Shown: positions 1-61,311, numbered from the stretch's first letter. The stretch is DNA of 64,000 bases from Rhodothermales bacterium (GCA_965207385.1 CBDBLZ010000017.1:65090-129089); one strand, 5' to 3'. Program-made: numbers and translations. The notes: a model not told the origin generated them from the sequence alone.

Positions 1-1303
1 CCGTAATCTTGGGGAACCAGTAATAGATGCCGGCAAACATGGCCAGGATGGTACCCGGTGCCACGACGTAGTGGAAATGCCCAATCACGTAGTACGTGTC
101 GTGCAACGGAATGTCCGTTGGAGCCAGTCCGAGCGGCAGTCCTGTCAGCCCTCCGATGCCAAACATCGGCAGAAAGCCCAGCGCAAACAGCATCGGGACA
201 GTAAAGCGAATCGAGCCGCCGTACAGCGTAATGAAGAGCGCGGACAGGATCACCACCGACGGAATGGAAATGATCATGGTCGTTACCTGGAAGAAGGCGC
301 TGATGGCCGTTCCCATCCCCGTAATGAACATGTGGTGCGCCCACACGATGAACGACATGAAACCCAAGAACAGCAGCGAATACACCATGAGGCGGTAGCC
401 CCAGAGCGGCTTGCGCGTATTGTTGGCAATGACCTCGGCCACGATCCCCATTGCCGGCAGGATTAGCACGTACACCTCCGGGTGAGCCAGGAACCAGAAC
501 AGGTGCTGCCACAGGAGCGGACTGCCTCCACCGGCAACCTCAAGGGGGCCTTCCGTCACCACGAGTCCGCTTGGCAGGAAGAAACTTGTGCCCAGCAGCC
601 GGTCTGCCAGCTGCAGAAAGCCTGCGGCCTCAAGAGGCGGGAATGCGAGCAGCAGCAGGAACGCCGTGACAAACTGCGCCCAGACGAAAAACGGCATGCG
701 AAAGAACGTCATGCCTTCGGCCCGTAGCTGAATGATGGTTGTGATGAAGTTTATGGCACCCAATAGAGACGACGTAATGAGGAAGACCATCCCCCAAAGC
801 CACATCGTTTGCCCCATGGTCTCTATATCCGCCAGCGGAGGATAAGAGGTCCAGCCTGCCTTCGCAGCGCCCTCCGGCACAAAGAAACTGGCCATCATGA
901 TCACGCCACCCCAGAAAAAGAAATGGTAGCTGGCCATGTTCAGGCGCGGAAACGCCATGTCGGGTGCACCAATCTGCAGTGGCACGACGTAGTTGCCGAA
1001 GGCCCCAACAGCAAGCGGCACAATGCCCATGAACACCATGATGGTGCCGTGCATGGCGCCGAACTGGTTGTACAGCTCCGGCGTGAGCGCGCCCAGAAGC
1101 GGAATCTCGACGCCAGGCGAAGCCAGCTGCCAGCGCATGAGCAGCATCAGGACGAACCCGAAAAGCAGGAAAAACAGCGCAGTGATGCCGTACTGAATGC
1201 CGATCACCTTGTGGTCCGTGGAGAACCAGTAGGTCTTCCAGAACCCTTGGTGATGGTCGCCGGCTCCGTTGTGGGCAGCAGATTCTGCGGAGCTATCTGC
1301 CAT
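1..1303 (-). CDS. ctaD: haem-copper cytochrome c oxidase subunit I, N-terminal ~434 codons; the 3' end runs off the window start
   Basis: Absent from the ORF track because there is no stop in the window. Manual reverse translation from the ATG at 1303 gives MADSSAESAAHNGAGDHHQGFWKTYWFSTDHKVIGIQYG. It contains subunit I signatures LFWFLAHPEVYVLILPAMG, VWAHHMFITGMG and HDTYYVIGHFHYVV. Confidence 0.9.
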   Translation of the reverse strand, partial: MADSSAESAAHNGAGDHHQGFWKTYWFSTDHKVIGIQYGITALFFLLFGFVLMLLMRWQLASPGVEIPLLGALTPELYNQFGAMHGTIMVFMGIVPLAVGAFGNYVVPLQIGAPDMAFPRLNMASYHFFFWGGVIMMASFFVPEGAAKAGWTSYPPLADIETMGQTMWLWGMVFLITSSLLGAINFITTIIQLRAEGMTFFRMPFFVWAQFVTAFLLLLAFPPLEAAGFLQLADRLLGTSFFLPSGLVVTEGPLEVAGGGSPLLWQHLFWFLAHPEVYVLILPAMGIVAEVIANNTRKPLWGYRLMVYSLLFLGFMSFIVWAHHMFITGMGTAISAFFQVTTMIISIPSVVILSALFITLYGGSIRFTVPMLFALGFLPMFGIGGLTGLPLGLAPTDIPLHDTYYVIGHFHYVVAPGTILAMFAGIYYWFPKIT

Positions 1304-1420
1304 GGTTTAGTCTATTTCGTGGTGAATGATGGCGCAGCCACAAAAGTAAGAAAGCGTTCAGCAACCGCGCACTTGCCGTCGCTGAACGCTTTCTCATATC
1401 TGGCCGCGAAGCTGGTCAAT

Positions 1421-2200
1421 TCAGCTGGCGGCACTGTAGGTAACGTCTGCCGTTGACGCTTCACCGTCGGTCACGCTGACTGACATCGACTGCTCGCCCA
1501 ACTCCGAGTGCCATGCCGTTACCGTGTACTCGCCTGCCGGAAGACCGCTGATGGTGAAGCTGCCGTCAGCACCCGAGACCCCGAAGTATGGATGGTCGAG
1601 CACGCCTATGTAGGCCTGCATCCACGTGTGTACATCACACTTGACGGAGATCATCACTTCCGGTATGAGAAACGACTTCTCCAGATAATCTCCCTCATTG
1701 GGCGTTGACTCGTTGAATCCGCGGTTGGTCTCGGGAACCGGATGAATGTTGTGCTGGAACGGATCGCTGTTTTCGATCCGGATCATCTGGCCGGTCTGCA
1801 CACCCATGACGTGAGGCACATACATGCATCCTTCCTGGTCCAGTACAGCTGGCTCGGAAGGCGTGGCATAGGAATACCCGTCGGGAAGGCCGCCGGTAAC
1901 ATAAACAAACACGGACTGGAGCCCGCCCGCCTCGCCTACGACAGTGGCGTCGGATAGTGGGTCGGTATCCCGCTCGTCCATGCAATCGGCAGTCATGCGA
2001 AGCGGCATGCGCTCAGGCGGCGTGCCATCGAAGCTCACCATGCCGGTTATGGACCCGGTTCCCATGGGTGTCGAATCCACCGCTTCCGCCATCTCCTCTC
2101 CACCCTCTTCCATTGCAGGATCTTCGGCCGCGCTTCCGCCACCGCCTCCACAGCCTACAGCGAGAAGGGCAAATACCAGTAGTAGTCCGATAGGTCGCAT
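1421..2200 (-). CDS. cupredoxin-like (type-1 copper-like) lipoprotein with a C-terminal Ig-like domain
   Basis: 259-aa ORF with a lipoprotein signal (LLAVGCGGGG). It has a single-Cys C-x2-H-x2-M site (KCDVHTWM) with upstream His (FQHNIHP), as in amicyanin-type sites. The C-terminus GSFTISGLPAGEYTVTAWHSELG is beta-sandwich-like. It lies directly upstream of ctaD. Confidence 0.6.
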   Translation of the reverse strand: MRPIGLLLVFALLAVGCGGGGGSAAEDPAMEEGGEEMAEAVDSTPMGTGSITGMVSFDGTPPERMPLRMTADCMDERDTDPLSDATVVGEAGGLQSVFVYVTGGLPDGYSYATPSEPAVLDQEGCMYVPHVMGVQTGQMIRIENSDPFQHNIHPVPETNRGFNESTPNEGDYLEKSFLIPEVMISVKCDVHTWMQAYIGVLDHPYFGVSGADGSFTISGLPAGEYTVTAWHSELGEQSMSVSVTDGEASTADVTYSAAS

Positions 2201-6914: not shown

Positions 6915-7454
6915 CTACGCGACATCGAACAGGTCGGTTTGCCCCCTCGTGATTCTCGCCATGACCTGGGCGTGCGTCAACATCCTTCCCCCCTCATCGA
7001 CGTGCGAGACGGCGACGCCCCGTTTGTCCAGCTCCTTGCCGATCAGCTTGCTGCGGTGGCACCGCTCCGGTCTTAGTTCGCTGCACAGGAGCGCAATCCG
7101 AATTCCCCGCCCGGCAGCCGCCATCACACGCTCCAGTCCCAGCAAAAACTCCGGCCTTCCGGCAAGAATGCCATAGCTCACTTTGCCATGGACATAACAG
7201 TCCGCATCATCCGGCCTCCCGCCCAGGAATGCACCCATGAACGCGTACCGCAGACCAGCCTCACGCAGCAGGCGTTCGAGGGACGCCTTCCTGAAATCGG
7301 GATTGAATCGGGAATAAGGCATCGATCGTACATCGAAAACATGTCCAACCCCATGCAAGTGCAGCAGAGCGACCATCTCCTGGGCAGTCCTGTTGCCATA
7401 TCCGATCGTGCATACGAGACCGGAGTCTGCGGAGTCGCTCATGCCGCGCTCCAA
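6915..7454 (-). CDS. DUF488 family protein
   Basis: 179-aa ORF. TIGYGNRTAQEMVALLHLHGVGHVFDVRSMPYSRFNPDF and LLCSELRPERCHRSKLI match the DUF488 pattern. Confidence 0.75.
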   Translation of the reverse strand: MERGMSDSADSGLVCTIGYGNRTAQEMVALLHLHGVGHVFDVRSMPYSRFNPDFRKASLERLLREAGLRYAFMGAFLGGRPDDADCYVHGKVSYGILAGRPEFLLGLERVMAAAGRGIRIALLCSELRPERCHRSKLIGKELDKRGVAVSHVDEGGRMLTHAQVMARITRGQTDLFDVA

Positions 7455-7569: not shown

Positions 7570-8040
7570 CTACATGCCCAGGCTACTCTTCACCTCATCC
7601 AACAATTGCGCGTCAATTGCTGAGTGGCCGCGCTGCCGGGCAAACGATTCGATCTGCCTGCGCACCGAGGCCCGCACAAAGTCCGGAATGGCCGCCAGTC
7701 GCGCTTCGGCTTCGGCCGTCCAGGCGGGCGCACCCGACATGTTGTCTGCCGCCGCTACAACGCCGGTAAACGGGCACTTCGAGCCCGCCGCGGGCTCTGG
7801 ATTCCCCTTGCCCGTGGCAAGCGACGAGCGGAGCATTTCCATGGGCTTAGCCTCCTCGGGACGACCCCCGATCTTGACACCCAGGGAGCGCACCATCTGG
7901 GTCTCCATCCTGTTGGTCAGCATGGCCATATCCCGGCTGCAGGAGGGGCATCGATACACAATGGACATGCTGCCATCCTCCGGCCCCAGAGCATTCTCGA
8001 GCAGCATGGGCTCGTCACAGGGTATACAAAGAAACTTCAT
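7570..8040 (-). CDS. zinc-ribbon protein with a C-terminal PCP_red-like domain; last gene of the cydA-like operon
   Basis: 156-aa ORF. The N-terminus is CIPC...CPSC. The C-terminus is PAWTAEAEARLAAIPDFVRASVRRQIESFARQRGHSAIDAQLLDEV. Its start overlaps the upstream stop by 4 nt. Confidence 0.7.
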   Translation of the reverse strand: MKFLCIPCDEPMLLENALGPEDGSMSIVYRCPSCSRDMAMLTNRMETQMVRSLGVKIGGRPEEAKPMEMLRSSLATGKGNPEPAAGSKCPFTGVVAAADNMSGAPAWTAEAEARLAAIPDFVRASVRRQIESFARQRGHSAIDAQLLDEVKSSLGM

Positions 8041-8945
8041 GGGCTTGCAACTTCGCTTTCGACCAACTCCTGCTGCACGGCCTGCCCGATACGTTCGTAT
8101 GCTAGCGCAGCCATGCTGCCAGCTGCCTGGTCAAAGAATGATATGCCTTGATCCGCGCAGGAACGGATCCGCTTGTCAAACGGAACGGCCCCCAGATAGG
8201 GTAAGCCATTCGCAGCTGCAAATTCTTCAGAACCGCGCGCGGAGCCGAACAGCGTCTCCAAACTGCCGCATCGGGAGCAGCAGAAATGACCCATGTTGTC
8301 TACGAGGCCGAGCATGCGGACGCGGCACGCGTCCGCAGCCATGGTGATTGAGCGCCCGACCACCAGATGCGAAACATCGCTTCCGACAGTCACCGCTAGT
8401 GCACCAGAAAGTCCCGGAACCAGCTCCGCCAGATTGGCCAGCCTGTCGCCGCCAGGCGGAAGATCTACCAGCAGCACATCCAGACTGCCCCATTCGGTAT
8501 CCGCCAGCATCTCGCGAAGCGCGCCCATTTCCACCATGGGGCGCCACGCATACGCACCTGTCTGCGTGGGCGCCCGCCATAGAACAGGCGAGGTATCCTC
8601 CAACAGAAACAGGTCCATGGACATGACCCGAATACCCAGTCTGGCGACTGCGGGCAACATGCCCGAAGATCCGGCGCGAGGAGAATGACTCCGGACGCCT
8701 GTCATCTTGGGAATCGAGGCGCCGTGAATATCTGCGTCCAGTATTCCAATCGCCTGCCCCTGTCGTGCGAGCACATCCGCCAGGTTTACGGTAAAGGTGC
8801 TCTTGCCGACTCCTCCCTTGCCGCTCATGACGGCGACGACGTGCCCAATATCTGCCAGACGCTGCTGCAGCTGACGCTGCTGTGCGCCAACCTGCGCCGC
8901 TACATCCGATCCCCCGTCCCCGGCGATATCATGGTAGGACTTCAA
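8037..8945 (-). CDS. Mrp/NBP35 (ApbC-type) P-loop ATPase, Fe-S cluster carrier family
   Basis: 302-aa ORF with a deviant Walker A (MSGKGGVGKSTFTVNLA), DLPPGGDR, and a CxxC pair (FCCSRCG). It has 4-nt overlaps at both ends. Confidence 0.85.
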   Translation of the reverse strand: MKSYHDIAGDGGSDVAAQVGAQQRQLQQRLADIGHVVAVMSGKGGVGKSTFTVNLADVLARQGQAIGILDADIHGASIPKMTGVRSHSPRAGSSGMLPAVARLGIRVMSMDLFLLEDTSPVLWRAPTQTGAYAWRPMVEMGALREMLADTEWGSLDVLLVDLPPGGDRLANLAELVPGLSGALAVTVGSDVSHLVVGRSITMAADACRVRMLGLVDNMGHFCCSRCGSLETLFGSARGSEEFAAANGLPYLGAVPFDKRIRSCADQGISFFDQAAGSMAALAYERIGQAVQQELVESEVASP

Positions 8946-10846
8946 GGCCCCGCCTGCTCGCGCATCATTTCCTCCATCAGCTTCAGTCCTTCCTTGATCC
9001 CCTCCTCAGTGATGCCAAGTGTAATCAGCGTGGTATTCCGGCCTTTCGCGACGGCCTGAACACGCTCCCTGGTGCGGTTTCGCATGAAGCCTTCCGGAAC
9101 CCGGTCGAGGCGCGCCTTGGCCTTGGGTGTCCACAGAAAATCGCCATCGGCTATGAGTTCGTCCGTAGCCGGGGCCGCTGGCGCATCCCGCGGTCCGTCG
9201 CCATTTGCACCGGGCGTCTTGAGCGAGCCCCGCTCGGACAGGTGCCTGGTCTCCTCGTACTGGACTTCCGTCACATCCAGCACCATCTGGCGCGTAATAG
9301 TCGGAACGCGCTGCACGCGCGCGCGCTTCTCGATCTGCGCCTTGGCGCGCCGCATCTGGTACCCGTCAGGAACCTTGCGCAATTCCTCCCTCGCATCCCT
9401 TGTCCACTTCAGCTTTACGTCGTCGAATGTGGCACTCTCCCTGACACCACCTTCCAGCTGCCGGAGCTGCTCTATGGCCTGCTTATCCAGCTTCTGGAAC
9501 GCCTCCCGCGCCGATCCGCACACTGCGCAGCGTACCGGTTCAAAATCACGGGCTGCATAGCCGCACTGCGCGCATATGTAGGTCACGGAATCAGAGGCCC
9601 GAATCTCTTCGGCCGCCGCATCCTCGGCAACTATGCCCATCTTGACCATAGAAGACCGGGGCAGGATGTTGCCCATAGCCTGCTCTACGATCTTGCGCGT
9701 TATGACGCTGTGGCCCCGCTCCATGGCCCACCTGTGAATCGTGGTCCGCGCTATGCCACGCGCAAAATCCGGCGCCGTATTCAAGAGTCGCGTTGCCGGC
9801 TCCGTCCATAGCATCGACGCTTCGGCCGCCACGTCCACGGGCGGCGTAAACCGCTGACTCGAAAGCAATATGTTGCACGGCGCCTGCCGAAGCAGGTTTT
9901 CCGTGTTGCTGCCGATGTCCATGTCGGTGTCGCTGTGCACGCCAATGCGGCCGAGCACCAGGAGCCAGGGCTGTTCGCGGCGCACGTACTGGAGCAACTT
10001 CTCGAAGGCCTTGCCGTCCAGCAGCGTAATCTTGAGGTCCGCTCCTTCTTCCTCGGCAATTTGCCGCGCCACCTCCAGGTGAGACTGGTAGATCTTCGCC
10101 AGGCCCGTATCGATTACTTCCTCGTGCAGCTGTTCCTGCTCCTTGAAGCGAAATACCTTGGATGCCTTCTCGGTGAGCACGTTCACGATGCTGTTGAACA
10201 TCGCATAGTGCAGGTACGGGTCATACACCGATACCGCTTCAACCTGCCGGCCCGTGGCGCGTCCAAGCTGCAGCGCCGTCCTGAGGCCCGCGAAAGATTC
10301 CGGACTACCGTCGATGCCCACCACAATGGAGCCCTTCTCGAGGCTCTTTTCGGGCTCCAGCCGCTTGATCACCAGCGTGTCCGTCCGCACGCGGCGGGTA
10401 ACGCGCTCGCAGACGCTGCCTAGCACACTGTCCTTGACCGCTCCGAGGCCCAGGGCGCCCAAAACGACCAGATCATAGCCGCTGTCTTCGATGTCCTTGA
10501 CAATGACCTTCCAGTTCTTGCCGTCATACATTTTGGGTTCAAAAGGCACACCCGCTTCGCGACAACGCTGGTCGGCAACCACGAGATAGGAATCGGAAAT
10601 CAGCTCCAGGCCCATCGTGATCAGCGTGTCATGAATCTTGCGCTGCTTCTCCATGGCATCTTCCAGCAGATACTCCTCCGGAAGCGTGTACTCCATTTGC
10701 TTGAACCGGTAGTCATGCATGCGCGCAGCGTAGGCATGGCTGCCGGTAATCGAAGCGCCAAACTCCCTGGCGAGCTCGACGGCCATGTCCACGGCGCAAA
10801 TCGAATGCTCCGAATTGTCTACCGGAACGAAAATATTCTTGTACAT
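8942..10846 (-). CDS. multidomain protein: USP-USP, PCP_red-like, CxxC-x11-CxxC zinc ribbon, PCP_red-like, PCP_red-like
   Basis: ORF 8942..10972 trimmed to MYKNIFVPVDNSEHS (ATG at 10846). Two universal-stress-protein-like halves (VVLGALGLGAVKDSVLGSVCERV; LVLGRIGVHSDTDMDIGSNTENLL) come first. Then follow WTEPATRLLNTAPDFARGIARTTIHRWAMERGHSVIT, YICAQCGYAARDFEPVRCAVCG, WTRDAREELRKVPDGYQMRRAKAQIEKRARVQRVPTIT and WTPKAKARLDRVPEGFMRNRTRERVQAVAKGRNTTLIT. Confidence 0.7.
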   Translation of the reverse strand: MYKNIFVPVDNSEHSICAVDMAVELAREFGASITGSHAYAARMHDYRFKQMEYTLPEEYLLEDAMEKQRKIHDTLITMGLELISDSYLVVADQRCREAGVPFEPKMYDGKNWKVIVKDIEDSGYDLVVLGALGLGAVKDSVLGSVCERVTRRVRTDTLVIKRLEPEKSLEKGSIVVGIDGSPESFAGLRTALQLGRATGRQVEAVSVYDPYLHYAMFNSIVNVLTEKASKVFRFKEQEQLHEEVIDTGLAKIYQSHLEVARQIAEEEGADLKITLLDGKAFEKLLQYVRREQPWLLVLGRIGVHSDTDMDIGSNTENLLRQAPCNILLSSQRFTPPVDVAAEASMLWTEPATRLLNTAPDFARGIARTTIHRWAMERGHSVITRKIVEQAMGNILPRSSMVKMGIVAEDAAAEEIRASDSVTYICAQCGYAARDFEPVRCAVCGSAREAFQKLDKQAIEQLRQLEGGVRESATFDDVKLKWTRDAREELRKVPDGYQMRRAKAQIEKRARVQRVPTITRQMVLDVTEVQYEETRHLSERGSLKTPGANGDGPRDAPAAPATDELIADGDFLWTPKAKARLDRVPEGFMRNRTRERVQAVAKGRNTTLITLGITEEGIKEGLKLMEEMMREQAGP

Positions 10847-10919
10847 GAGACCTCCTGGCACCTCGCGCGGCCTTGTCATACCGCCAAGTCCGACGAATGT
10901 GGCAATGGTATGGGACTTG

Positions 10920-11258
10920 TCAGTAGATGTAGGCCATGCGCTCCTGCACGTAGTTGAGTCTGTCCATGACATAGCTCAGCTCGGCGCTGTCCATTTCGCC
11001 GTGCACCAGCGCTGTTGCAAGAATCGCTGAAGCCAGGTGACGCGAGCAGCCGGATACCTCCTGGAGGCGCGCCCTGGCGACGCAGTCGACAAATCTCCGA
11101 AGCTCAAATCTGGCCCTGACCAGAGTATTGCGCTGTTCGACGGCGAGGTCCGGCTTCTCGAGAATGCCGGCGAGTCGCGTGATCTCCAGGGCCAGAATGG
11201 AGGGCGTCATCTGCTGAAACTCCTTCCAGCTCAGGAACTGGATTTCATTTTCAACCAT
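10920..11258 (-). CDS. hypothetical small, probably helical, protein
   Basis: ORF 10920..11321 trimmed to MVENEIQFLSWKEF (ATG at 11258). This start overlaps the ferredoxin stop by 1 nt (TGATG). Confidence 0.5.
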   Translation of the reverse strand: MVENEIQFLSWKEFQQMTPSILALEITRLAGILEKPDLAVEQRNTLVRARFELRRFVDCVARARLQEVSGCSRHLASAILATALVHGEMDSAELSYVMDRLNYVQERMAYIY

Positions 11259-11446
11259 CACACATTCTCCGTCTCCTCTTCGACCGCTACGATGGCATCG
11301 AACTCGCACATCACCAGACATTCTTCAAAGTCGCAGCACGTGTCATCAATCACGTAGACGGGATCGCCCTCGGAAATGGCCGATATAGGACACACGTCGA
11401 TGCACATGTCGCACGCCGTACAAGCTTCGGTAATCGTATACGGCAT
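11258..11446 (-). CDS. small 4Fe-4S ferredoxin
   Basis: 62-aa ORF with CTACDMCIDVCP (CxxCxxCxxxCP) plus a second Cys cluster, CCDFEECLVMCE. It lies 5 nt downstream of the radical SAM gene. Confidence 0.8.
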   Translation of the reverse strand: MPYTITEACTACDMCIDVCPISAISEGDPVYVIDDTCCDFEECLVMCEFDAIVAVEEETENV

Positions 11447-11451
11447 GGCTG

Positions 11452-12687
11452 CTAGACGAGGTGCTTCGGGGCCTCAATCTCTGCCGCCTCCTGGACAAAG
11501 CGGCTGTTTCGCGTCATGCCGGAAAGCGCGCCCGTCATCACAGCCGTGGTGATGCAAGAGAGTCCGTGCCGCTCTGCGTATGCTTCCACGCCCTTGCGCG
11601 TCTTTTCGCGGATGAAGGCGATGGGAATGCGTTCCAGCCGCCGGAGCGCAGGCTCGCCCCAGACCATCGCCGTCTTCGGCAGTGACCTCCCCGCGGGCTG
11701 GTACCTGCAGGCAGGATCCTCCTCCAGATAGTCTCCCGTCATGGCATATGCTCGGCACCGACAGCCCCCGCAAATCTCCTTGAACTCGCAGACCCCGCAG
11801 CGACCCTTGAGGCGGCCTGCGTCACGCAGATCGCGGAAAACCGGTGAATTCTCCCAGATGTCCGTAAACGACCGCTCAAGAACGCTGCCTCCCACCGCAG
11901 TCATGTACGGACACGGGGTAACGTCCCCCTCCGGCGTGATGCGACAATACTGGGTTGCCGCCATGCATCCTCCACTTTCGAGGCCGGCCAGTCCCCTGTC
12001 GTAGGCGATCTGCTTGAACTGCGGCGCACACTTGGAGCGCACCAGCATCGGTCTGTAGTCATCCTGCATGTCGACCAGGCGCTCAAGCATAGCCTCCGTC
12101 CGCGCTGCCTTCAGTTCAGACATGCCCTGACCCCGGCCCGTCTGCACCAGGAAGTACAGGTTGAAAGCCCAGGCTCCCTTTTCTCTTGCAAACGAGAGCA
12201 ATGCGGGGATTTCGTCGTAGTTCTCCTCCATGACGGTCGTCTGCACGAGAACCTCGAGACCGTGCCTGCGGCACGTGTCGATGGCGCGCACGCTGTGCTG
12301 CCAGGCATTTGGTCCGCCGCGAAAGCTGTTGTGCCGCTCAGGATCGATGGAGTCGATGCTGATGCCCACACCCTTTATGCCACAATCGACCATCCGGCCT
12401 GCTACACGGTCGGTTACCAGGACGCCATTGGTGCCCATGACCACCCAGATGCCCTTCCCGGAGGCCCGCTCGGCGATCGCAAAGATATCCCGACGAAGCA
12501 GCGGCTCCCCGCCCGTCAGGATCAACATCTCCGTGCCGAGCGCCTCCATCTCGTCCAGGAGACGGAGACACTCCTCCGTGGTCAGTTCACGCTCCGCCTT
12601 GCGCCCTGCCGACATGTAGCAGTGCGGACAGCGCAGGTTGCACTTCTTGGTCAGATTCCAGGAGATGAGGGAAGGCTTGTACTTCAC
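11452..12687 (-). CDS. radical SAM / SPASM-domain enzyme with a C-terminal PCP_red-like domain (NirJ/AhbD-like architecture)
   Basis: ORF 11452..12897 trimmed to the in-frame GTG at 12687 (V/M-KYKPSLISWNLTKKCNLRCPHCY, i.e. CxxxCxxC). It has LTGGEPLLRRD and GTNG, SPASM cysteines CGVCEFKEICGGCRC, and the tail VWGEPALRRLERIPIAFIREKTRKGVEAYAERHGLSCIT. The longer ORF would overlap the upstream gene by 180 nt. Confidence 0.8.
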   Translation of the reverse strand: MKYKPSLISWNLTKKCNLRCPHCYMSAGRKAERELTTEECLRLLDEMEALGTEMLILTGGEPLLRRDIFAIAERASGKGIWVVMGTNGVLVTDRVAGRMVDCGIKGVGISIDSIDPERHNSFRGGPNAWQHSVRAIDTCRRHGLEVLVQTTVMEENYDEIPALLSFAREKGAWAFNLYFLVQTGRGQGMSELKAARTEAMLERLVDMQDDYRPMLVRSKCAPQFKQIAYDRGLAGLESGGCMAATQYCRITPEGDVTPCPYMTAVGGSVLERSFTDIWENSPVFRDLRDAGRLKGRCGVCEFKEICGGCRCRAYAMTGDYLEEDPACRYQPAGRSLPKTAMVWGEPALRRLERIPIAFIREKTRKGVEAYAERHGLSCITTAVMTGALSGMTRNSRFVQEAAEIEAPKHLV

Positions 12688-12716
12688 AGCGCTGGTAGCG
12701 GCAATGACACGCGCTG

Positions 12717-14255
12717 CTAGACCTTCCTTTGGCGCCACCGAACCAGGCCAATCAGCCCGATCTCGACAAGCAGCACGACAAGCGCCCATGTGGCCATGGG
12801 GCCCGCTGCAGAAGTGGTCTCCAGTGGCGCCAGGTACACGTGATACCAGGCAGACAGTCCGCGCTTGTTGCCGCGCTCGCCACTCGCGCCGTCCCATACA
12901 GAGAACGAGACGGGCGTAAAGGCGCTCTCGGCGAAATATAGCCCGCTTGGCCGCTCGCGCGCGCCCTTGAAGATGACGGTCCAGACGCCGTCACCATACT
13001 GCAGGTAATGCTCAAGTACCTCGTCTGACTCCGCTATGGAGCCCGACCCCGACCCGATGAGAACTTGCGCCTCTTCTGCTGCCATGTCGGCAAACCAGAT
13101 GGCCATGGGGTTCCTGTCGTCCCCAAACATGAAATAGGGGCGCTCGAGTCCCTCGGGTGTGGTGGCGGGCAATAGCAGGGCCACGGCGTCGGAATACAAC
13201 AGGCTGTCGGGGGCCGCCGTTGAATCAAACGGCGGCACCGCCATGGCCGGATGGTTCGAACCTGTTGCCTCAGCCGTCATGTCGTGCCACGAGAGCATGA
13301 AGGCAATGTCATCCTCGTTGTAGACGGCACTGACCGAAACGCCGTTTACACCGGGATAGAAGGACCGGCCCGGCTCAATGACCTGTGCCACGATGGGGAA
13401 ATAGGCCGTCGGGGCACCGTCAAAGAGCGCCGGCCCGCGCGTGATATCAAGCTCCTCGCTGAGGCCCAGACCTTCCACCACCGTTCCGTATTCGGGCTCA
13501 TCGCGCGATAGTGACCACACGTAGTCTACCAGCGCCCAGCGGTCCTCCTCCTCGATCGTCTGGGCATAGGAAGGCATCGGAGTGCCGTTTAGCCCCGTGG
13601 TAAACGTGCGGTACACGTCTTCGCGCGTCGGGCTCGCCCGGAATGTCCAGCGCTTGGTCAGGTCAGCCGGACGGATGGGGTATCCCCAATCGTCCACGAG
13701 ATCCGGTGCGGAAAACCCGTTTGCGCGACCGTTGTCACCGTGGCAGTCGGCGCACTGGTTGGCTTCGTACACTTCGCGTCCTCGCTCCAGCCTGCCCTCG
13801 TCAAAGGGCGGGGCATCGGGCACCTCCATTACCTGGGGCGTACCGTAGGGACCGGCAAAGGCCGGCTCGAAAGTCTTGATGTAGTATGCCAGATTGGTGA
13901 TCTCCGACTCGCTCAGGATTCCCTCCCAGGCCGGCATGCTGGTATAGGGCATGCCCAGGCGTATGCTGCGCGCAATGTCCTCCGTGGTCGGAAGCTCACC
14001 ACTGGCCGTGGAGCGAAACTTGAAGTTTCCCGAAGCAAAATCGCGCGGCGTCGGGCGCACGTACTGCGTTGCCACGGCCACTGCATCCCCTTCGGAGCCG
14101 TGGCAATGGGCACACTTAGCATCATACACCTCCTTGCCGGCAGAGCGCTGCTGCTCAGTACCCAGGTCGGGTTCCTGGGCAAACGCCACGGACGCCCACA
14201 ACAGCGCGCCAAATGCTAGGGCGGCAGTCCTCATGGTGCCATATCTCCTCATCAA
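12717..14255 (-). CDS. dihaem cytochrome c fused to an EB_dh/DOMON-like domain (tentative), with a C-terminal TM anchor
   Basis: 512-aa ORF with a signal peptide (AFGALLWASVAFAQE), CAHCH and CADCH sites, and MPAWEG. The C-terminal half is beta-rich (SVSAVYNEDDIAFMLSWHD...VSFSVWDGASGERGNKRGLSAWYHVYL). The final segment is hydrophobic (WALVVLLVEIGLIGLV). The start overlaps the upstream stop by 4 nt. Confidence 0.7.
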   Translation of the reverse strand: MMRRYGTMRTAALAFGALLWASVAFAQEPDLGTEQQRSAGKEVYDAKCAHCHGSEGDAVAVATQYVRPTPRDFASGNFKFRSTASGELPTTEDIARSIRLGMPYTSMPAWEGILSESEITNLAYYIKTFEPAFAGPYGTPQVMEVPDAPPFDEGRLERGREVYEANQCADCHGDNGRANGFSAPDLVDDWGYPIRPADLTKRWTFRASPTREDVYRTFTTGLNGTPMPSYAQTIEEEDRWALVDYVWSLSRDEPEYGTVVEGLGLSEELDITRGPALFDGAPTAYFPIVAQVIEPGRSFYPGVNGVSVSAVYNEDDIAFMLSWHDMTAEATGSNHPAMAVPPFDSTAAPDSLLYSDAVALLLPATTPEGLERPYFMFGDDRNPMAIWFADMAAEEAQVLIGSGSGSIAESDEVLEHYLQYGDGVWTVIFKGARERPSGLYFAESAFTPVSFSVWDGASGERGNKRGLSAWYHVYLAPLETTSAAGPMATWALVVLLVEIGLIGLVRWRQRKV

Positions 14256-15079
14256 TGCGGCATGCCCTGAGCGCGCGGCTCAAAGCCGGTGTATTCGTAA
14301 AGAAAAATGATCACGTCCCAGATTTCCTCCTCCGTCAGGAATAGCTCCCAGGCCGGCATGGCGCTCGACCATGGCGTGGACTCCGACGGCAGTCCGGGCG
14401 CTCCCTTGGCAATGCGCCAGAACAGATAGGATTCCTGCAGCATGGCGATGGTGGTGGCATCATTGAAGTTTGCCGGAATGGGATCATATCCGTGTGCAAA
14501 CATGCCCGCTCCTTCCATGTTGTCGCCGTGGCAGTAGAAGCAGTTCTGGAAGTATATGCGGCGCCCGTTCAGGACGTGACGCTCAAAAGCCTCCGGATCC
14601 GACGTCTCGAGCTCCCGGTAGGGATTGACTTCCGTGGCGAGGTTGATCGACCTGCCCTGGAAATTGATGGATCCGGGCGGCGGCGGGTGTATGGTGCGAG
14701 CACTGACAGGCGGCTGTGGCGGCTGCGACATGTCGGAGTAGACCTTGAGCGCCGCAAACAACGGAAGTGCCAGCGTCACCATGAGCAGCGACCAACGGTA
14801 CTTGGGAAGGACGAGGAAATTGACGGCGGAAGTCCGGGCCGAGGCCAGCTCTTCCACGTCGGCTGCCAGGTACGTTGCAAGCGCGAGCGTGATGATCGCC
14901 ATGAAAAGCACGATGATCGAGCTTGGAAGCGGAGGATTGACGCCGAAGCTGAGCCCCAGATACACGGCAGCCCACCATAGGGCAATCCACGCAAGGCGGT
15001 TCAGCTTCAGCCACCGGGTTACCACCAGCTGGATCAGAACCAGTGCAGCGGCAATGCCAAGTACGACTAGCGTATTCAT
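14252..15079 (-). CDS. membrane-anchored monohaem cytochrome c
   Basis: 275-aa ORF with about four N-terminal hydrophobic helices, then CFYCH and SSAMPAWE. Confidence 0.75.
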   Translation of the reverse strand: MNTLVVLGIAAALVLIQLVVTRWLKLNRLAWIALWWAAVYLGLSFGVNPPLPSSIIVLFMAIITLALATYLAADVEELASARTSAVNFLVLPKYRWSLLMVTLALPLFAALKVYSDMSQPPQPPVSARTIHPPPPGSINFQGRSINLATEVNPYRELETSDPEAFERHVLNGRRIYFQNCFYCHGDNMEGAGMFAHGYDPIPANFNDATTIAMLQESYLFWRIAKGAPGLPSESTPWSSAMPAWELFLTEEEIWDVIIFLYEYTGFEPRAQGMPH

Positions 15080-15088
15080 GTAGCCTGC

Positions 15089-15883
15089 CTATAAGGCAGC
15101 CAGGTAGTCGATCAGAATCTGCAATTCTGCCGCCGAGACCTGCTCATGAAACGAGGTCGCGGTCATCATGGCTGACATGACGCCTGCGGCAAACCCCTCC
15201 GTTACGGTCGCGTCCGGGTCCACGATGGATTCGTACAACTCGCCACGGCTCAGCCGACTGCCAACGCCTGCCAGCGTGGGACCGGCACCGACAGCGCCAT
15301 CCAGCGTGTGGCAGGTGTTGCACAGATACGCCGTGAAGAGGGTCTCCGCATCGCGCGGCTCACCCGCTGCCACTGCCGCAGTCGGAGCCGCTGCGGGCGC
15401 GATCTGGCCTTGCCATTCCAGTTCGGTGTCCATGGTCACCGACGGCGTGCCGCCAAGCGACTGCAGATAGGCGATGACAGTCAGAATCTCCGTGTCCGTC
15501 AGTGATATCGGCGGGCGCGCAACGTTGGGCATGCCGGCCACAAAACCCTCCACGACGTAGGCGTTGGGATCGTACATGGACTCCGCCAGATAAACGACGT
15601 CGCTTACTCCTTCCTCCCGCTCGGCAGCGATGGCGCCGATGCCAGCCAGGTCAGGAAAACGGAGCCCCGTCCCGGATTCGCCTACGGTGTGGCATGTCAG
15701 GCACGTTCCCTTGCCCGCTGCAATTTCCTGGCCTACGGCCACCATTTCCTCCGTAGTAAGATTGGCGCCGATCACGATATCCTCGGGCGGATCCGTTCGC
15801 TTCTGCGGTACCCACAGACTGACGTACCAGTAGAAGGCCGATACGATGATCGTAAAGCCGAATATTTGAAGGGCGTGTTTCAC
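15089..15883 (-). CDS. membrane-anchored dihaem cytochrome c
   Basis: 264-aa ORF with an N-terminal TM helix (IFGFTIIVSAFYWYVSLWV) and CLTCH and CNTCH sites. Confidence 0.8.
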   Translation of the reverse strand: MKHALQIFGFTIIVSAFYWYVSLWVPQKRTDPPEDIVIGANLTTEEMVAVGQEIAAGKGTCLTCHTVGESGTGLRFPDLAGIGAIAAEREEGVSDVVYLAESMYDPNAYVVEGFVAGMPNVARPPISLTDTEILTVIAYLQSLGGTPSVTMDTELEWQGQIAPAAAPTAAVAAGEPRDAETLFTAYLCNTCHTLDGAVGAGPTLAGVGSRLSRGELYESIVDPDATVTEGFAAGVMSAMMTATSFHEQVSAAELQILIDYLAAL

Positions 15884-15916
15884 TGCTACTGATGCCTGGC
15901 AGCCGAGGGCTTCGTC

Positions 15917-17647
15917 CTACGCCGGTTTGGGTGCCCACTTCTTCTTGGACGAAAGTCCCGTCAGGAAGAAGACGATGGCAATGAAAAGGAAGAAAATGAT
16001 GACGGTAACCGAAACCACCAGGCCGGCATAGCCAAGCGTGGGAGTAAAGGCGTCCACGGACGTGTCCCTGATGACCCCGTATACGTGCCAGTGCTGCCGC
16101 ATCCCGGCGCGCACATACCCCATCAGACCCATCGTCCACGCGAACGTAATGGCCAGGAAAAACAGCGCATACTGGGACATCGGGGAGATCTTGCCCCAGG
16201 CAATCTCTCCCTTCTTGTCCGCGCCCCGGAAGAGGAAAATGTCAATGACGGTCACGGAAATCATGGCGAAGAGCACCGACATGACCTGCGGCTGCGAAAG
16301 TCCGATCCGCGTCTGGGCATCGACAAAATACCCGTAGACCCCCAGGAAGACCACGAAGATGACCACGATGGCAAAGATGCCAAACTGGATGAGATTGCCG
16401 GCCCTGGCCCAGCTCACGGTGGCGACCTTGTTGGATCTCCGGTACAGCAGGAAGCTTACGTAGGTGGTGAGGATGAGCACGTTCACGGCCGTGTTCTTGG
16501 CCGACATCACGCCCAGTACGTTGAGTATTGGGTGGTGAGAGCCTCCCATGGCCCTGGCCTCCTCCACCGTGGCCACCAGCGAGTGAGGCGTGGCCCAGAC
16601 GATAAAGCACAGCGTGATGACCGCCAGAAGATATTTTATGAACTTTCGATACCGCTCCGCACCGCCGATTCGCCCCATGCTCAGCCACAGGTAGAAGTTG
16701 GCCGCCAGGAACAGATTGCCGATCAGCACGGCCTGTATGATGAACAGCCAGGAAAACGTGCCGCCCATGAGCGTAATGCCCAGGCTCTGATCGTAGGCGT
16801 AGATCTCCACACCGAGCCAGTACCCGGCAAATGGCAGCGGCAACAGGGCGCATATGGCAATGAAATTGCCGATGTAGCCCATCCAGTCATAATGCGCCTT
16901 TTCCTCCAGCGTCTTGGCGCCAAGAAACTTGTAGGCGCCGTAGGCCGCCCCGATGGCCCCGCCAAAGGCCATGTTGGCAATCAGCCGGTGGATGTTGATG
17001 GGCATCCATATGTAATTGTTGATGGCGTCCCAAACGCTCGTCAGATTGCCCAGCTCGTCTATGCCATTGGGCGTGTTCATGAAAGTGAGCCATCCGTTGG
17101 CGATGAACATGATGGCCGTGCCCACGATATTGAGCATCACCCCCAGGAAGAGGTGTACTCTGGGCGAGAATTTGCCCCATCCGTAATAGTAGGCGTAGAG
17201 GAAGAAGGCCTCCAGAAAGAACAGCAGGACGTACGGCAAAAAGGTCCAGCTGAAGATCTTTACCAGGTACTGGGTTAGCGCCGGATAAAAGACCATGAGG
17301 CCAAAGGTGAGCAGCGCACCCAGCGTGGCCGTAAATGAGAAGGAGACAGACAGCAGGCGTGTGAAATCATGCGCCAGTTCATCGAATCTCTTGTCACCGG
17401 TCTTGTAGCCGATGAACTCGATGACGATGGCGAACATGGGCACTGCAAGCACGAATGCCGCGAACATCAGGTGCAGCTCGGCCACGACCCACATGATGAC
17501 CCGGCTGCTGATGAACGGCAGTGCCCGATAGTCTCCCTCGCCCGCTGCCTCCTGGGGTCCGGCCCACGCGGCTTCGCCAGACAGCGCCGCCACAGCCAGC
17601 AAAAGAAGCCCTACGGGCAGTGCGCGAACAAGCCGGATGCGCATCAT
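15917..17647 (-). CDS. cytochrome bd subunit I (CydA)-like membrane haem protein; atypical, with no long Q-loop and no adjacent CydB
   Basis: 576-aa polytopic ORF. FFLEAFFLYAYYYGWGKFSPRVHLFLGVMLNIVGTAIMFIANGWLTFMNTP aligns by eye with E. coli CydA FFLESTFVGLFFFGW...LVANGWMQNP. Conserved His residues occur in AELHLMF and NIHRLIANMAFGG. Confidence 0.75.
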   Translation of the reverse strand: MMRIRLVRALPVGLLLLAVAALSGEAAWAGPQEAAGEGDYRALPFISSRVIMWVVAELHLMFAAFVLAVPMFAIVIEFIGYKTGDKRFDELAHDFTRLLSVSFSFTATLGALLTFGLMVFYPALTQYLVKIFSWTFLPYVLLFFLEAFFLYAYYYGWGKFSPRVHLFLGVMLNIVGTAIMFIANGWLTFMNTPNGIDELGNLTSVWDAINNYIWMPINIHRLIANMAFGGAIGAAYGAYKFLGAKTLEEKAHYDWMGYIGNFIAICALLPLPFAGYWLGVEIYAYDQSLGITLMGGTFSWLFIIQAVLIGNLFLAANFYLWLSMGRIGGAERYRKFIKYLLAVITLCFIVWATPHSLVATVEEARAMGGSHHPILNVLGVMSAKNTAVNVLILTTYVSFLLYRRSNKVATVSWARAGNLIQFGIFAIVVIFVVFLGVYGYFVDAQTRIGLSQPQVMSVLFAMISVTVIDIFLFRGADKKGEIAWGKISPMSQYALFFLAITFAWTMGLMGYVRAGMRQHWHVYGVIRDTSVDAFTPTLGYAGLVVSVTVIIFFLFIAIVFFLTGLSSKKKWAPKPA

Positions 17648-18138
17648 AGACGGTCAATCGGAAAGAGCCGCACCAAAACAACTGCCTGCCATGGACATTG
17701 TCAAGGCAATCCGCACCGGCTCTGAACCCATGAATATCTGTCTGAGACCAACTTTGGCAAAATGTACGAAGCAGCCGGAACCCCGTTCGACCGGTGGGCC
17801 ATATAATAGTGCGTCATAGTCGGAAGCAGGAGTGAATTTTTTTGTTGCTGCCATAGCGGCACTCCTTTTGCCGGCAGCGTTTTGCCTGGCAGTCTGGGGA
17901 GGTGTGTCCCTGCTCAAGCGGATACACCGGAAGGGCCATGCGCTGCGTGCGCTTCCTGTGCCGAGAAAGATCGCTGTCGCCGCGCGTGCCCGGGTCACCG
18001 AGCCGGAGTCGGACGACGGGCCTTGGCCCGATTACACGTATGATTCGGGCATATCGCGCGGCTTTCCGGAAGCATGGGAAGAGGATTTGTTGCTCAGGCG
18101 CAACTAAATTAGCCCCTAACCAGACGGGCACATCCACT

Positions 18139-56797: not shown

Positions 56798-56805
56798 AAC
56801 GCCAT

Positions 56806-61309: not shown

Positions 61310-61311
61310 CC

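What the first reader, a model, noticed from the sequence alone, without database searches (positions are those of the whole stretch)
7570..12687. Five copies of a ~45-aa PCP_red-like motif across three proteins, in unusual fusions
The translations directly show these related segments:
- VWGEPALRRLERIPIAFIREKTRKGVEAYAERHGLSCIT (radical SAM C-terminus, ~11.52-11.66 kb).
- LWTEPATRLLNTAPDFARGIARTTIHRWAMERGHSVIT (USP protein).
- KWTRDAREELRKVPDGYQMRRAKAQIEKRARVQRVPTIT (USP protein).
- LWTPKAKARLDRVPEGFMRNRTRERVQAVAKGRNTTLIT (USP protein).
- AWTAEAEARLAAIPDFVRASVRRQIESFARQRGHSAID (156-aa protein).

The shared pattern is W-T/G-x-x-A-x3-L-x2-[IVA]-P-x-[FGY]-x-R-x6-[IV]-E/x-x2-A-x3-G/x-x3-I-T.

The host architectures are rSAM-SPASM-PCP_red, USP-USP-PCP_red-Zn ribbon-PCP_red-PCP_red, and Zn ribbon-PCP_red. 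Such amplification of one small module within a single operon suggests a shared ligand or docking function. Fusion to two USP (nucleotide-binding) domains hints at regulation by nucleotide or energy state. That last point is inference.
Basis: partly seen in the sequence, partly recalled or inferred. Interest (0 to 1): 0.75.

Follow-up and report, generated by a model that had tools for sequence, protein, structure and literature searches.

The report
Haem-synthase gene module tagged by PCP_red
The five repeated segments are real copies of a small domain otherwise known from a chlorophyll enzyme, and they mark three proteins of a widespread, unstudied gene set that most likely makes haem without oxygen and supplies it to the respiratory oxidases encoded next door.

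Summary
All five segments are PF08369 (PCP_red) domains above Pfam's threshold.

They are not rare oddities. The three proteins belong to a conserved minus-strand module:
- a radical SAM-SPASM-PCP_red enzyme
- a small ferredoxin
- a 112-aa helical ORF
- USP-USP-PCP_red-rubredoxin-like ribbon-PCP_red-PCP_red
- an Mrp/NBP35 ATPase
- a Zn-ribbon protein with an invariant KCPF motif and PCP_red

Relatives of the USP protein occur in at least 567 species genomes, spanning about a dozen named lineages.

The radical SAM enzyme is nearest to the haem b synthase AhbD/NirJ2 and carries AhbD's CX2CX5CX2CX17C cluster motif. In one lineage it follows hemH-hemY directly, where a coproheme decarboxylase would sit.

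The module usually lies beside terminal-oxidase genes. In this window those are a bd-like oxidase operon and, about 5 kb away, COX1.

Best reading: an oxygen-independent haem b synthase with its Fe-S and electron-supply helpers. The PCP_red domains would serve as a shared (copro)haem-handling or docking module. The invariant Cys-Pro motif in the small protein is a candidate transient haem ligand. No binding or activity has been shown.

New variant of a known kind; moderately to highly interesting.

The parts
11452..12738 (-). Radical SAM-SPASM-PCP_red enzyme, AhbD/NirJ2-like; putative O2-independent coproheme decarboxylase (haem b synthase). PCP_red domain at about 11533-11664.
   Evidence: Pfam: Radical_SAM 116.7 bits, SPASM 37.1, PCP_red 35.3. 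NCBIfam: NirJ2 345.7 and AhbD 306.5 bits, both below the 500 cut-off. CX3CX2C plus the AhbD-type CX2CX5CX2CX17C motif. AF2 pLDDT 82, pTM 0.83. GTG start at 12738.
11258..11446 (-). 62-aa 4Fe-4S ferredoxin; likely electron donor or acceptor for the radical SAM enzyme.
   Evidence: Pfam Fer4 families; NCBIfam FdxA_fam 44 bits, below cut-off. It follows the radical SAM gene in Rhodothermales and Chloroflexi loci.
10920..11258 (-). Conserved ORF of about 112 aa with no family match (start at M22 of the 133-aa ORF).
   Evidence: 41% identical to the gene in the same position in Rhodocaloribacter litoris. Found in 21 of the first 81 loci (L001-L081). No Pfam or NCBIfam hit. ATG at 11258 overlaps the ferredoxin stop codon.
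8942..10846 (-). 634-aa USP-USP-PCP_red-rubredoxin-like ribbon-PCP_red-PCP_red protein. PCP_red copies at 9698-9811, 9293-9409 and 9020-9136; ribbon at about 9497-9580.
   Evidence: Pfam: Usp 131 bits (2 stretches), PCP_red 79.6 bits (3 stretches), weak RUBY_RBDX. ATP motifs at aa 172 and 341 of the 676-aa ORF. 100%-identical 634-aa database copy. W/P/A of each PCP_red copy is invariant or nearly so across phyla.
8037..8945 (-). Mrp/NBP35/ApbC-type P-loop ATPase (Fe-S cluster carrier family) with a CSRC motif.
   Evidence: PF10609 229 bits. NCBIfam MrpORP 216 and ApbC 159 bits, both below cut-off. CxxC at aa 223. Present in 64 of the first 81 loci (L001-L081), usually immediately upstream of the small PCP_red gene.
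7570..8040 (-). 156-aa protein: N-terminal 4-Cys ribbon (about 7939-8028), flexible linker with invariant KCPFTG (7762-7779), C-terminal PCP_red (about 7588-7725).
   Evidence: PCP_red 58.4 bits. Alignment A1: C5, C8, C31, C34, C89, P90, F91 and W107 are invariant in 43 sequences. The CPF motif is present in 120/120 family members, 17-22 aa before the PCP_red Trp. AF2 plus Foldseek match 2KRU and 2L09.
12717..17647 (-). Upstream genes of the same operon: bd-like oxidase subunit I (15917-17647), dihaem cytochrome c (15089-15883), membrane cytochrome c (14252-15079), dihaem c plus EB_dh haem-b domain protein (12717-14255).
   Evidence: Pfam. Same order in Rhodothermales, Calditrichia and unclassified Bacteroidota loci; all but the cytochrome c/EB_dh gene detected in the Latescibacterota locus; in Methylomirabilota the genes are present but lie downstream of the module and in a different order.
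2..2200 (-). Context: haem-copper oxidase subunit I fragment (2-1306, cut by the window edge) and a CarboxypepD_reg-domain protein (1421-2200), as found downstream of the module in relatives.
   Evidence: phmmer against R. litoris COX1 gives 779 bits, and against its CarboxypepD_reg protein 270 bits. Pfam for 1421-2200. Same layout in L001 and L089.

Best explanation
**Shown**
- The five segments are true PCP_red domains.
- They lie in three proteins of a conserved, tightly packed minus-strand gene set.
- That gene set recurs across many bacterial lineages, mostly next to terminal-oxidase genes.

**Inferred, with good support**
- The catalytic core is an AhbD-type radical SAM enzyme. It would convert coproheme to haem b without oxygen.
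- The small ferredoxin would handle its electrons.
- The Mrp/NBP35 ATPase would supply its three [4Fe-4S] clusters.

**Inferred, with weaker support**
- The PCP_red domain is a portable three-helix unit. In BchB, its known host, the C-terminal helix that contains it covers the tetrapyrrole cavity.
- Here it would be the common handle by which the synthase, the small carrier protein and the USP scaffold recognise the same (copro)haem, or each other.
- Haem made by the synthase would pass to the 156-aa protein. Its invariant Cys-Pro-Phe motif lies in a flexible linker just before its PCP_red domain and would give a transient thiolate ligand.
- Haem would also pass to the three PCP_red copies of the ATP-binding USP protein.
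- From there it would go on to the oxidases: the bd-like oxidase and haem-copper oxidase here, and CtaB/CtaA and COX1 elsewhere.
- ATP binding by the USP pair would gate this hand-off.
For: **Domain identity**
- Pfam scores above threshold in all three proteins.
- A profile of the small family hits BchB/ChlB C-termini and the stand-alone domains 2KRU and 2L09 at E 1e-6 to 5e-9.
- Foldseek TM 0.79 to 2KRU.

**AhbD-like enzyme**
- The best NCBIfam models are NirJ2 (346 bits) and AhbD (306 bits), matched over their full length.
- The AhbD auxiliary-cluster motif CX2CX5CX2CX17C, as described in PMC10114771, is present in the window protein.
- The motif is also in 120/120 homologues and in the Poribacteria, Nitrospirales, Myxococcales, Chloroflexi and Methylomirabilota versions.
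- In loci L084, L085 and L088 the gene directly follows, and overlaps, hemH (214 bits, above cut-off) and a hemY-type oxidase (235 bits, above cut-off). That is where a coproheme decarboxylase would be expected in a coproporphyrin-pathway operon.
- Reviews state that AhbD-like enzymes occur in coproporphyrin-pathway organisms and 'might' do this step anaerobically (PMC13564367; PMC10114771).

**Module conservation**
- The USP-PCP, radical SAM, Mrp and small PCP_red genes co-occur in most of 87 loci drawn from about a dozen named lineages.

**Oxidase link**
- Oxidase or haem a/o genes lie within 10 kb in 65 of 87 loci.
- Poribacteria: COX2-COX1-CtaA-CtaB-COX3-COX4-SCO1-USP-PCP-...-Mrp-small PCP_red-radical SAM.
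- Chloroflexi: the module lies between the COX genes and the Cu-assembly factors Caa3_CtaG and Cox11.
- L088 joins the bd-like operon, the module and hemH-hemY in one place.

**Candidate haem ligand**
- [SG][KR]CPF[TS]G is present in 120/120 small-family members.
- It lies in a region of pLDDT below 50.
- Cys-Pro motifs are the classic transient haem-binding motif (PMC11442138).

**ATP motifs**
- Present in both USP domains.
Against: - No binding or activity data exist for any of these proteins.
- The radical SAM protein scores below the curated equivalog cut-offs for both AhbD and NirJ2 (306 and 346 bits against 500). It is a sister subfamily, not a certified AhbD.
- hemH-hemY adjacency was seen in only one or two related lineages, and not in this window.
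- PCP_red domains have no conserved His, Cys, Met or Tyr that could ligate haem iron. The two NMR structures were matched here only as domain structures; their ligand state was not examined.
- The USP-PCP family has no Cys-Pro motif at all (0 of 351 domains).
- Nitrospirales loci show no oxidase genes within 10 kb (0/7).
- Whether the 45-aa PCP_red unit itself, rather than a neighbouring helix, caps the pigment in BchB was not checked here. PMC4071322 only says 'C-terminal helix'.
- The loci are dominated by Poribacteria, so raw counts overstate the number of independent events.
Confidence: 0.45

Rival explanations
1. PCP_red is purely a protein-protein docking tag. The five copies assemble the synthase, the USP scaffold and the small protein (and perhaps Mrp) into one complex. 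None of them touches a tetrapyrrole. The small protein could be an adaptor that brings the Mrp Fe-S carrier to the radical SAM enzyme.
For: - No conserved metal-ligating residue inside the domain; only W, P, A and basic positions are kept.
- The Mrp and small PCP_red genes are almost always adjacent and here overlap by 4 nt.
- The N-terminal 60 residues of the small protein are nearly invariant, as expected for a fixed partner interface.
- Copy number varies from 2 to 6 in USP proteins, which is typical of interaction repeats.
Against: - The only characterised host of the domain is a tetrapyrrole enzyme.
- Here it is again fused to a tetrapyrrole-type radical SAM enzyme.
- The invariant Cys-Pro-Phe motif next to one copy is hard to explain by docking alone.
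Confidence: 0.3
2. The radical SAM enzyme is not the general haem b synthase. It would be an oxidase-specific cofactor tailoring enzyme, for example an oxygen-independent modification of haem for the bd-like or haem-copper oxidases. The PCP_red proteins would hold the substrate haem.
For: - It scores below the AhbD and NirJ2 equivalog cut-offs.
- It is embedded among oxidase structural and assembly genes (CtaA, CtaB, SCO1, Caa3_CtaG, Cox11) rather than haem-pathway genes in most lineages.
- It is about 70% identical across distant phyla, which suggests a specialised, mobile unit.
Against: - The AhbD-specific Cys motif is kept everywhere.
- In L084, L085 and L088 the gene is translationally coupled to hemH-hemY.
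- CtaA and CtaB are already present in many of the same clusters, so the known haem o and haem a steps are covered.
Confidence: 0.12
3. The USP-PCP_red protein is mainly a sensor or regulator. It would read ATP/AMP through the USP pair, and free haem or precursor through PCP_red, and switch haem synthesis or oxidase assembly on or off. It would not carry haem.
For: - Both USP domains have the ATP-binding motif, invariant across phyla.
- Stand-alone USP genes sit next to it in Poribacteria.
Against: - No DNA-binding or enzymatic output domain in 41 USP-bearing representatives.
- It does not explain the PCP_red copies on the enzyme and on the small protein.
- It is compatible with, rather than exclusive of, the main explanation.
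Confidence: 0.1

Closest known systems
C-terminal PCP_red domain of BchB/ChlB in dark-operative protochlorophyllide reductase (PDB 3AEK, 2XDQ, 2YNM, 8VQI)
   Same: Same Pfam family and same signature: W-T-x-x-A...L...[IV]-P-x-F-[IV]-R...A...G...I-T. Profile E-values are 1e-6 to 2e-8. Both hosts are tetrapyrrole enzymes.
   Different: The host proteins here are not nitrogenase-like. The domain follows a radical SAM/SPASM core, a USP pair or a Zn ribbon, and is present five times in one operon. The tetrapyrrole would be (copro)haem rather than Mg-protochlorophyllide.
Stand-alone PCP_red proteins solved by structural genomics (2KRU, described as the PCP_red domain of BchB; 2L09, Asr4154 of Nostoc)
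   Same: Best fold matches of the small protein's C-terminal domain: TM 0.79 and 0.67, 39% and 31% identity. They show that the domain folds on its own.
   Different: They are about 60 aa, so too short to hold the N-terminal Zn ribbon or the Cys-Pro linker. The literature searched assigns them no function.
AhbD (haem b synthase) and NirJ2 of the alternative haem pathway
   Same: Radical SAM plus SPASM, full-length match to both models. Identical auxiliary-cluster motif CX2CX5CX2CX17C.
   Different: Scores are below the equivalog cut-offs. It has an extra C-terminal PCP_red domain beyond the end of the AhbD and NirJ2 models. No AhbA/B/C genes were detected next to it. Neighbours are oxidase genes or hemH-hemY.
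Cytoplasmic haem chaperones HemW and C. jejuni CgdH2
   Same: The proposed role is the same: take haem from the last biosynthetic enzyme and deliver it to respiratory enzymes (PMC10114771, read; PMC10320005, title and abstract only, listed).
   Different: No sequence relationship. Those are HemN-like radical SAM folds. Here the putative carriers are small helical PCP_red units with a Cys-Pro motif or fused to USP domains.
Cys-Pro haem regulatory motifs (Irr, HO-2, IRP2)
   Same: A Cys-Pro dipeptide followed by a hydrophobic residue, in a disordered stretch.
   Different: Recognised by sequence only. In this family it is invariant and placed 17-22 residues before a folded domain, which suggests a fixed rather than an opportunistic site.

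Membership tests
Pfam PF08369 PCP_red domain | HMM score above the gathering threshold (32.5 bits) | tested here: met
   58.4, 79.6 (three stretches) and 35.3 bits for the three proteins.
Pfam PF08369 PCP_red domain | Small helical fold as in 2KRU and the BchB C-terminus | tested here: met
   AF2 model of the 156-aa protein, residues 107-153, pLDDT 77-89. Foldseek to 2KRU: TM 0.79, rmsd 1.1 A over 54 columns. The radical SAM model shows three helices at 346-390 with pLDDT 79-93.
DPOR subunit BchB/ChlB | Nitrogenase-like three-domain core preceding the PCP_red domain; full-length equivalog score | tested here: not met
   NCBIfam BchB models match only their last 55-60 positions (45-66 bits against cut-offs of 490-912). 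No Oxidored_nitro domain in any of the three proteins.
AhbD haem b synthase | Radical SAM CX3CX2C cluster motif | tested here: met
   CNLRCPHC at residue 17 of the 412-aa numbering.
AhbD haem b synthase | C-terminal auxiliary cluster motif CX2CX5CX2CX17C | tested here: met
   CGVCEFKEICGGCRCRAYAMTGDYLEEDPAC in the window. Spacing of 17 in 120/120 homologues and in six further loci from other lineages. Motif as stated in PMC10114771.
AhbD haem b synthase | Score above the curated equivalog cut-off (TIGR04545, 500 bits; or NirJ2 TIGR04055, 500 bits) | tested here: not met
   306.5 and 345.7 bits; 303.8 and 352.6 bits for the Myxococcales orthologue.
AhbD haem b synthase | Gene context in haem biosynthesis | tested here: inconclusive
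   Directly after hemH and hemY in L084, L085 and L088. Not in this window, where no other haem gene was found.
AhbD haem b synthase | Converts coproheme to haem b with SAM | not testable with these tools
   Needs enzyme assay.
Universal stress protein, ATP-binding subclass | Usp HMM match and the G-x2-G-x9-G-[ST] motif | tested here: met
   Usp 131 bits, two stretches. Motifs at aa 172 and 341. The glycines are invariant in alignment A2.
Mrp/NBP35/ApbC Fe-S carrier ATPase | PF10609 match, P-loop and a CxxC motif | tested here: met
   229 bits over the whole model. CSRC at aa 223. The equivalog cut-offs for MrpORP and ApbC are not reached (216 of 450; 159 of 348).
Cys-Pro haem regulatory motif | Cys-Pro followed by a hydrophobic residue in an exposed, flexible segment | tested here: met
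   KCPFTG; 120/120 conserved; pLDDT below 50 around it.
Cys-Pro haem regulatory motif | Binds haem through the Cys thiolate | not testable with these tools
   Needs spectroscopy of wild-type and C89A protein.
Cytochrome bd superfamily, OR-N type (operon context) | CydA-like N-terminal helices, no quinol site, about 14 helices, alternative electron-donor genes in the operon | tested here: inconclusive
   PF01654 matches only residues 48-285 (85 bits). A crude hydropathy scan gives 12-16 hydrophobic segments. Cytochrome c genes follow. Family definition from bioRxiv 10.1101/2021.01.16.426971. The quinol site was not examined.

The most novel reading that the evidence does not exclude
PCP_red is a portable (copro)haem-handling domain. 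This module would then be a previously unrecognised cytoplasmic haem relay. An oxygen-independent AhbD-type synthase would hand newly made haem to a Cys-Pro/PCP_red carrier and to an ATP-gated USP-(PCP_red)n scaffold. These would deliver it to terminal-oxidase assembly (CtaB/CtaA, COX1, bd-like oxidases) in many little-studied lineages.
Probability: 0.3. Interest if true: 0.8.

Novelty: new variant of a known kind. Interest (0 to 1): 0.62.

Why it matters
How haem leaves its last biosynthetic enzyme and reaches membrane oxidases is still poorly understood in bacteria. Which enzyme carries out the anaerobic coproheme decarboxylase step of the coproporphyrin pathway is only presumed (PMC10114771).

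This module gives a concrete, widely distributed candidate for both questions. It also gives a first functional context for a domain known only as the tail of a chlorophyll enzyme. It offers small, easily purified proteins to test: the 156-aa protein and the isolated PCP_red units.

It also attaches a likely biogenesis unit to the uncharacterised bd-like oxidases of Rhodothermales, Methylomirabilota and relatives.

Tried and rejected
- **Exact-sequence look-ups.** The 156-aa protein and its 100% USP neighbour P0001 returned nothing, so the source contig was not recovered. The organism is inferred as Rhodothermales from the best hits.
- **Literature on the domain.** Searches for PF08369/PCP_red, 'PCP reductase' and Asr4154 found nothing on the domain outside DPOR.
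- **Literature on the oxidase family.** The bd-superfamily preprint does not contain 'radical SAM' or 'universal stress' (0 occurrences each).
- **Unproductive literature searches.** Two searches gave nothing useful. A DPOR evolution preprint gave nothing on the role of the C-terminal domain.
- **PDB.** No AhbD structure was found by sequence or fold. The radical SAM model matches only generic SPASM enzymes: SkfB, PqqE, SuiB, anSME.
- **Lid position of PCP_red.** Model coordinates are not returned, so I could not check whether the PCP_red domain lies over the active site of the radical SAM barrel.
- **Small protein N-terminal domain.** It resembles the NrdR Zn ribbon only weakly (E 0.06-0.3). 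Nothing is built on that.
- **Promoter and terminator scan of the operon.** Counts were at chance level.
- **hemH/hemY.** Searched in all loci and in the window. Found only in the Myxococcales-type loci.
- **Chance or low-complexity repeats.** Rejected, given the HMM scores and cross-phylum conservation.
- **Peptide-modifying SPASM maturase.** Rejected. The best family matches, the Cys motif and the hemH-hemY coupling all point to a tetrapyrrole substrate, and no precursor-peptide gene is conserved beside it.


Full report
**1. What is there**

The region 7570-17647 is one minus-strand gene string. Pfam and NCBIfam give, in order of transcription:
- a cytochrome bd-like subunit I (17647-15917; PF01654 over residues 48-285 only)
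- a dihaem cytochrome c (15883-15089)
- a membrane cytochrome c (15079-14252)
- a dihaem cytochrome c fused to an ethylbenzene-dehydrogenase-type haem b domain (14255-12717)
- a radical SAM-SPASM-PCP_red protein (about 12738-11452)
- a 62-aa 4Fe-4S ferredoxin (11446-11258)
- a conserved ORF of about 112 aa with no family (11258-10920)
- a USP-USP-PCP_red-ribbon-PCP_red-PCP_red protein (10846-8942)
- an Mrp/NBP35 ATPase (8945-8037)
- a 156-aa ribbon-PCP_red protein (8040-7570)

Gaps between neighbours are 0-9 nt or 4-nt overlaps, apart from 33 nt after the bd-like gene and 73 nt before the USP gene. The rest of the window is housekeeping and holds no other haem gene. The exception is a haem-copper oxidase subunit I fragment at 2-1306, next to a CarboxypepD_reg protein at 1421-2200.

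**2.

All five quoted peptides are at the stated positions. PF08369 scores 58.4, 79.6 (three stretches) and 35.3 bits against a threshold of 32.5.

A profile of the small-protein family finds BchB/ChlB C-termini and two stand-alone PCP_red NMR structures in the PDB (E 5e-9 to 1e-5).

The AF2 model of the 156-aa protein (pLDDT 72, C-terminal domain 77-89) matches 2KRU with TM 0.79 and rmsd 1.1 A. An alignment of the five copies with 2KRU and ChlB keeps W, L, P and A in every sequence, and several further positions in most.

**3. The fusions are common, not odd**

- The USP protein has thousands of relatives named only 'universal stress protein'.
- A search of 1.84 billion cluster representatives with its C-terminal half gave 442 hits.
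- Ten long hits all read Usp x2 plus 2-6 PCP_red stretches, eight of them with a rubredoxin-like ribbon.
- Among 130 representatives, 123 have PCP_red, 41 have Usp and 38 have the ribbon.
- The small protein belongs to NCBI's 'PCP reductase family protein' (1745 clusters).
- The radical SAM-SPASM-PCP_red architecture is kept at about 70% identity in hits labelled Rhodothermales, Chloroflexi, Myxococcales and Krumholzibacteriota.

**4. A conserved module**

A scan of one genome per species found at least 567 genomes that encode a relative of the USP protein. The best 80 include Rhodothermales, Krumholzibacteriia, Latescibacterota, Calditrichia, Poribacteria, Entotheonella, Methylomirabilota/Rokubacteria, Binatia, TA06, Planctomycetota and Nitrospirales.

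I searched six-frame ORFs of these loci with the window proteins. Within 10 kb, the radical SAM gene appears in 53 of the first 81 loci (L001-L081), Mrp in 64 and the small PCP_red gene in 59. Rhodocaloribacter litoris has the whole operon, with an IS605-type insertion in it.

**5. What the enzyme is**

The two best NCBIfam models are NirJ2 and AhbD, each matched end to end (346 and 306 bits). Both are below the 500-bit equivalog cut-off. The PCP_red domain lies beyond the end of both models.

The review PMC10114771 gives CX2CX5CX2CX17C as the auxiliary-cluster motif of AhbD. The window protein has exactly this motif. So do 120/120 homologues and six further loci from other lineages.

In three loci (L084, L085, L088) the gene overlaps the end of a hemY-type oxidase gene, which itself follows hemH. 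Both score above their curated cut-offs. In a coproporphyrin-pathway operon, that is where a coproheme decarboxylase would be expected.

Two reviews say that AhbD-like enzymes occur in such organisms and may perform the step anaerobically. This has not been demonstrated. I therefore read the enzyme as an AhbD-like, oxygen-independent haem b synthase. This is inference from homology and context.

**6. The oxidase link**

Oxidase or haem a/o genes lie within 10 kb in 65 of 87 loci.
- Poribacteria: COX2-COX1-CtaA-CtaB-COX3-COX3-COX4-SCO1-USP-PCP-...-Mrp-small PCP_red-(CopD-like)-radical SAM.
- Chloroflexi: the module lies between the COX genes and the copper-assembly factors Caa3_CtaG and Cox11.
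- Rhodothermales, Calditrichia, Latescibacterota and Methylomirabilota: the module abuts the bd-like oxidase operon.
- L088 brings the bd-like operon, the module and SCO1-hemH-hemY-radical SAM together.
- Nitrospirales are an exception, with no oxidase gene nearby in 0/7 loci.

Poribacteria dominate the sample, so the number of independent events is closer to eight lineages than to 65 loci.

**7. New detail on the small protein**

Alignment of 43 members shows an invariant four-Cys ribbon (C5, C8, C31, C34). After it comes an almost invariant stretch, AMLTNxMETQMVRSLGVKIGGR. A variable linker follows, then an invariant C89-P90-F91 and the PCP_red domain.

The motif [SG][KR]CPF[TS]G is present in 120/120 members, 17-22 residues before the PCP_red Trp. 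It is duplicated in two members (P0163 and, in variant form, P0196). It lies in a segment with pLDDT below 50.

Cys-Pro motifs are the classic transient haem-binding motif (PMC11442138). The USP family has none. Haem binding is inference.

**8. How it most likely works**

- The synthase makes haem b from coproheme.
- The ferredoxin carries the electron needed for SAM cleavage or released on decarboxylation.
- Mrp loads the three clusters.
- The PCP_red units act as a common recognition handle for the tetrapyrrole or for one another. This would let haem pass to the small Cys-Pro carrier and the USP scaffold, and then to the oxidases.
- In BchB the C-terminal helix covers the pigment cavity (PMC4071322), which is the only functional precedent for the domain.
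- ATP motifs in both USP domains make nucleotide control plausible.

The main rival is that PCP_red is only an assembly tag. The lack of any conserved iron ligand inside the domain favours that rival.

**9. Comparison and novelty**

The domain is a true PF08369 member, but none of the hosts is a BchB. The enzyme works like AhbD but fails the equivalog score.

Nothing in the searchable literature describes the module. It is best filed as a new variant of a known kind: an AhbD-type haem synthase with a dedicated set of PCP_red partner proteins, attached to terminal-oxidase clusters.

Noticed in passing
window 7762-7779 (aa 88-93 of the 156-aa protein): Invariant KCPFTG (Cys-Pro-Phe) motif in a disordered linker 17-22 aa before the PCP_red domain. 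It is present in 120/120 family members and duplicated in two (P0163; variant second copy in P0196). It looks like a haem regulatory motif.
   Followed up: yes
window 12717-17647: bd-like oxidase subunit I with only a partial CydA match, followed by three cytochrome c genes. One of these carries an ethylbenzene-dehydrogenase-type haem b domain. This resembles the uncharacterised OR-N type of the bd superfamily.
   Followed up: partly
window 2-1306 and 1421-2200: A haem-copper oxidase subunit I fragment at the window edge. It is preceded by a CarboxypepD_reg/fn3_3 protein that recurs beside oxidase operons in 27 of the first 81 loci (L001-L081), with no known role there.
   Followed up: partly
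L076 13477-14004; L023 16353-16898; also L014, L015, L017, L021, L074: A membrane protein of about 175 aa, with weak CopD hits and one weak UPF0093 hit, lies next to the radical SAM or small PCP_red gene in Nitrospirales, Poribacteria, Calditrichia and Latescibacterota. It is absent from this window.
   Followed up: partly
L001 6684-7844 (Rhodocaloribacter litoris): An IS605 OrfB/TnpB-type gene is inserted between the oxidase cytochrome genes and the radical SAM gene of the otherwise identical operon.
   Followed up: no
window 7570-8040 versus database copy P0121: The 100%-identical database protein is annotated 11 residues short (145 aa). That start, assuming the copy lacks only the N-terminal residues, removes the first CxxC of the invariant Zn ribbon and is very likely wrong.
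   Followed up: partly
window 17902-19305 (+): A DoxX/DoxD-type membrane protein gene is divergent from the bd-like operon. The same neighbour is seen in L089.
   Followed up: no
alignment A5 (representatives): One PCP_red-containing representative carries a Haem_oxygenas_2 domain (E 3e-31), and a TENA/PQQC match was also counted once. Whether both lie in the same protein was not checked. This may be another haem-related fusion of the domain.
   Followed up: no
window 56132-57286 (-): An iron-dependent repressor (DtxR-type) with a C-terminal FeoA domain and an unmatched N-terminal extension of about 165 aa.
   Followed up: no
window 59495-61923 (+): Two adjacent ORFs of 604 and 207 aa with no Pfam match at E 1e-5, followed by a Methyltransf_30 protein.
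   Followed up: no
window 6915-7454 (-): A DUF488 gene lies 115 nt downstream of the module on the same strand. It is not found near the module in any of the first 81 loci (L001-L081), so it is probably unrelated.
   Followed up: yes
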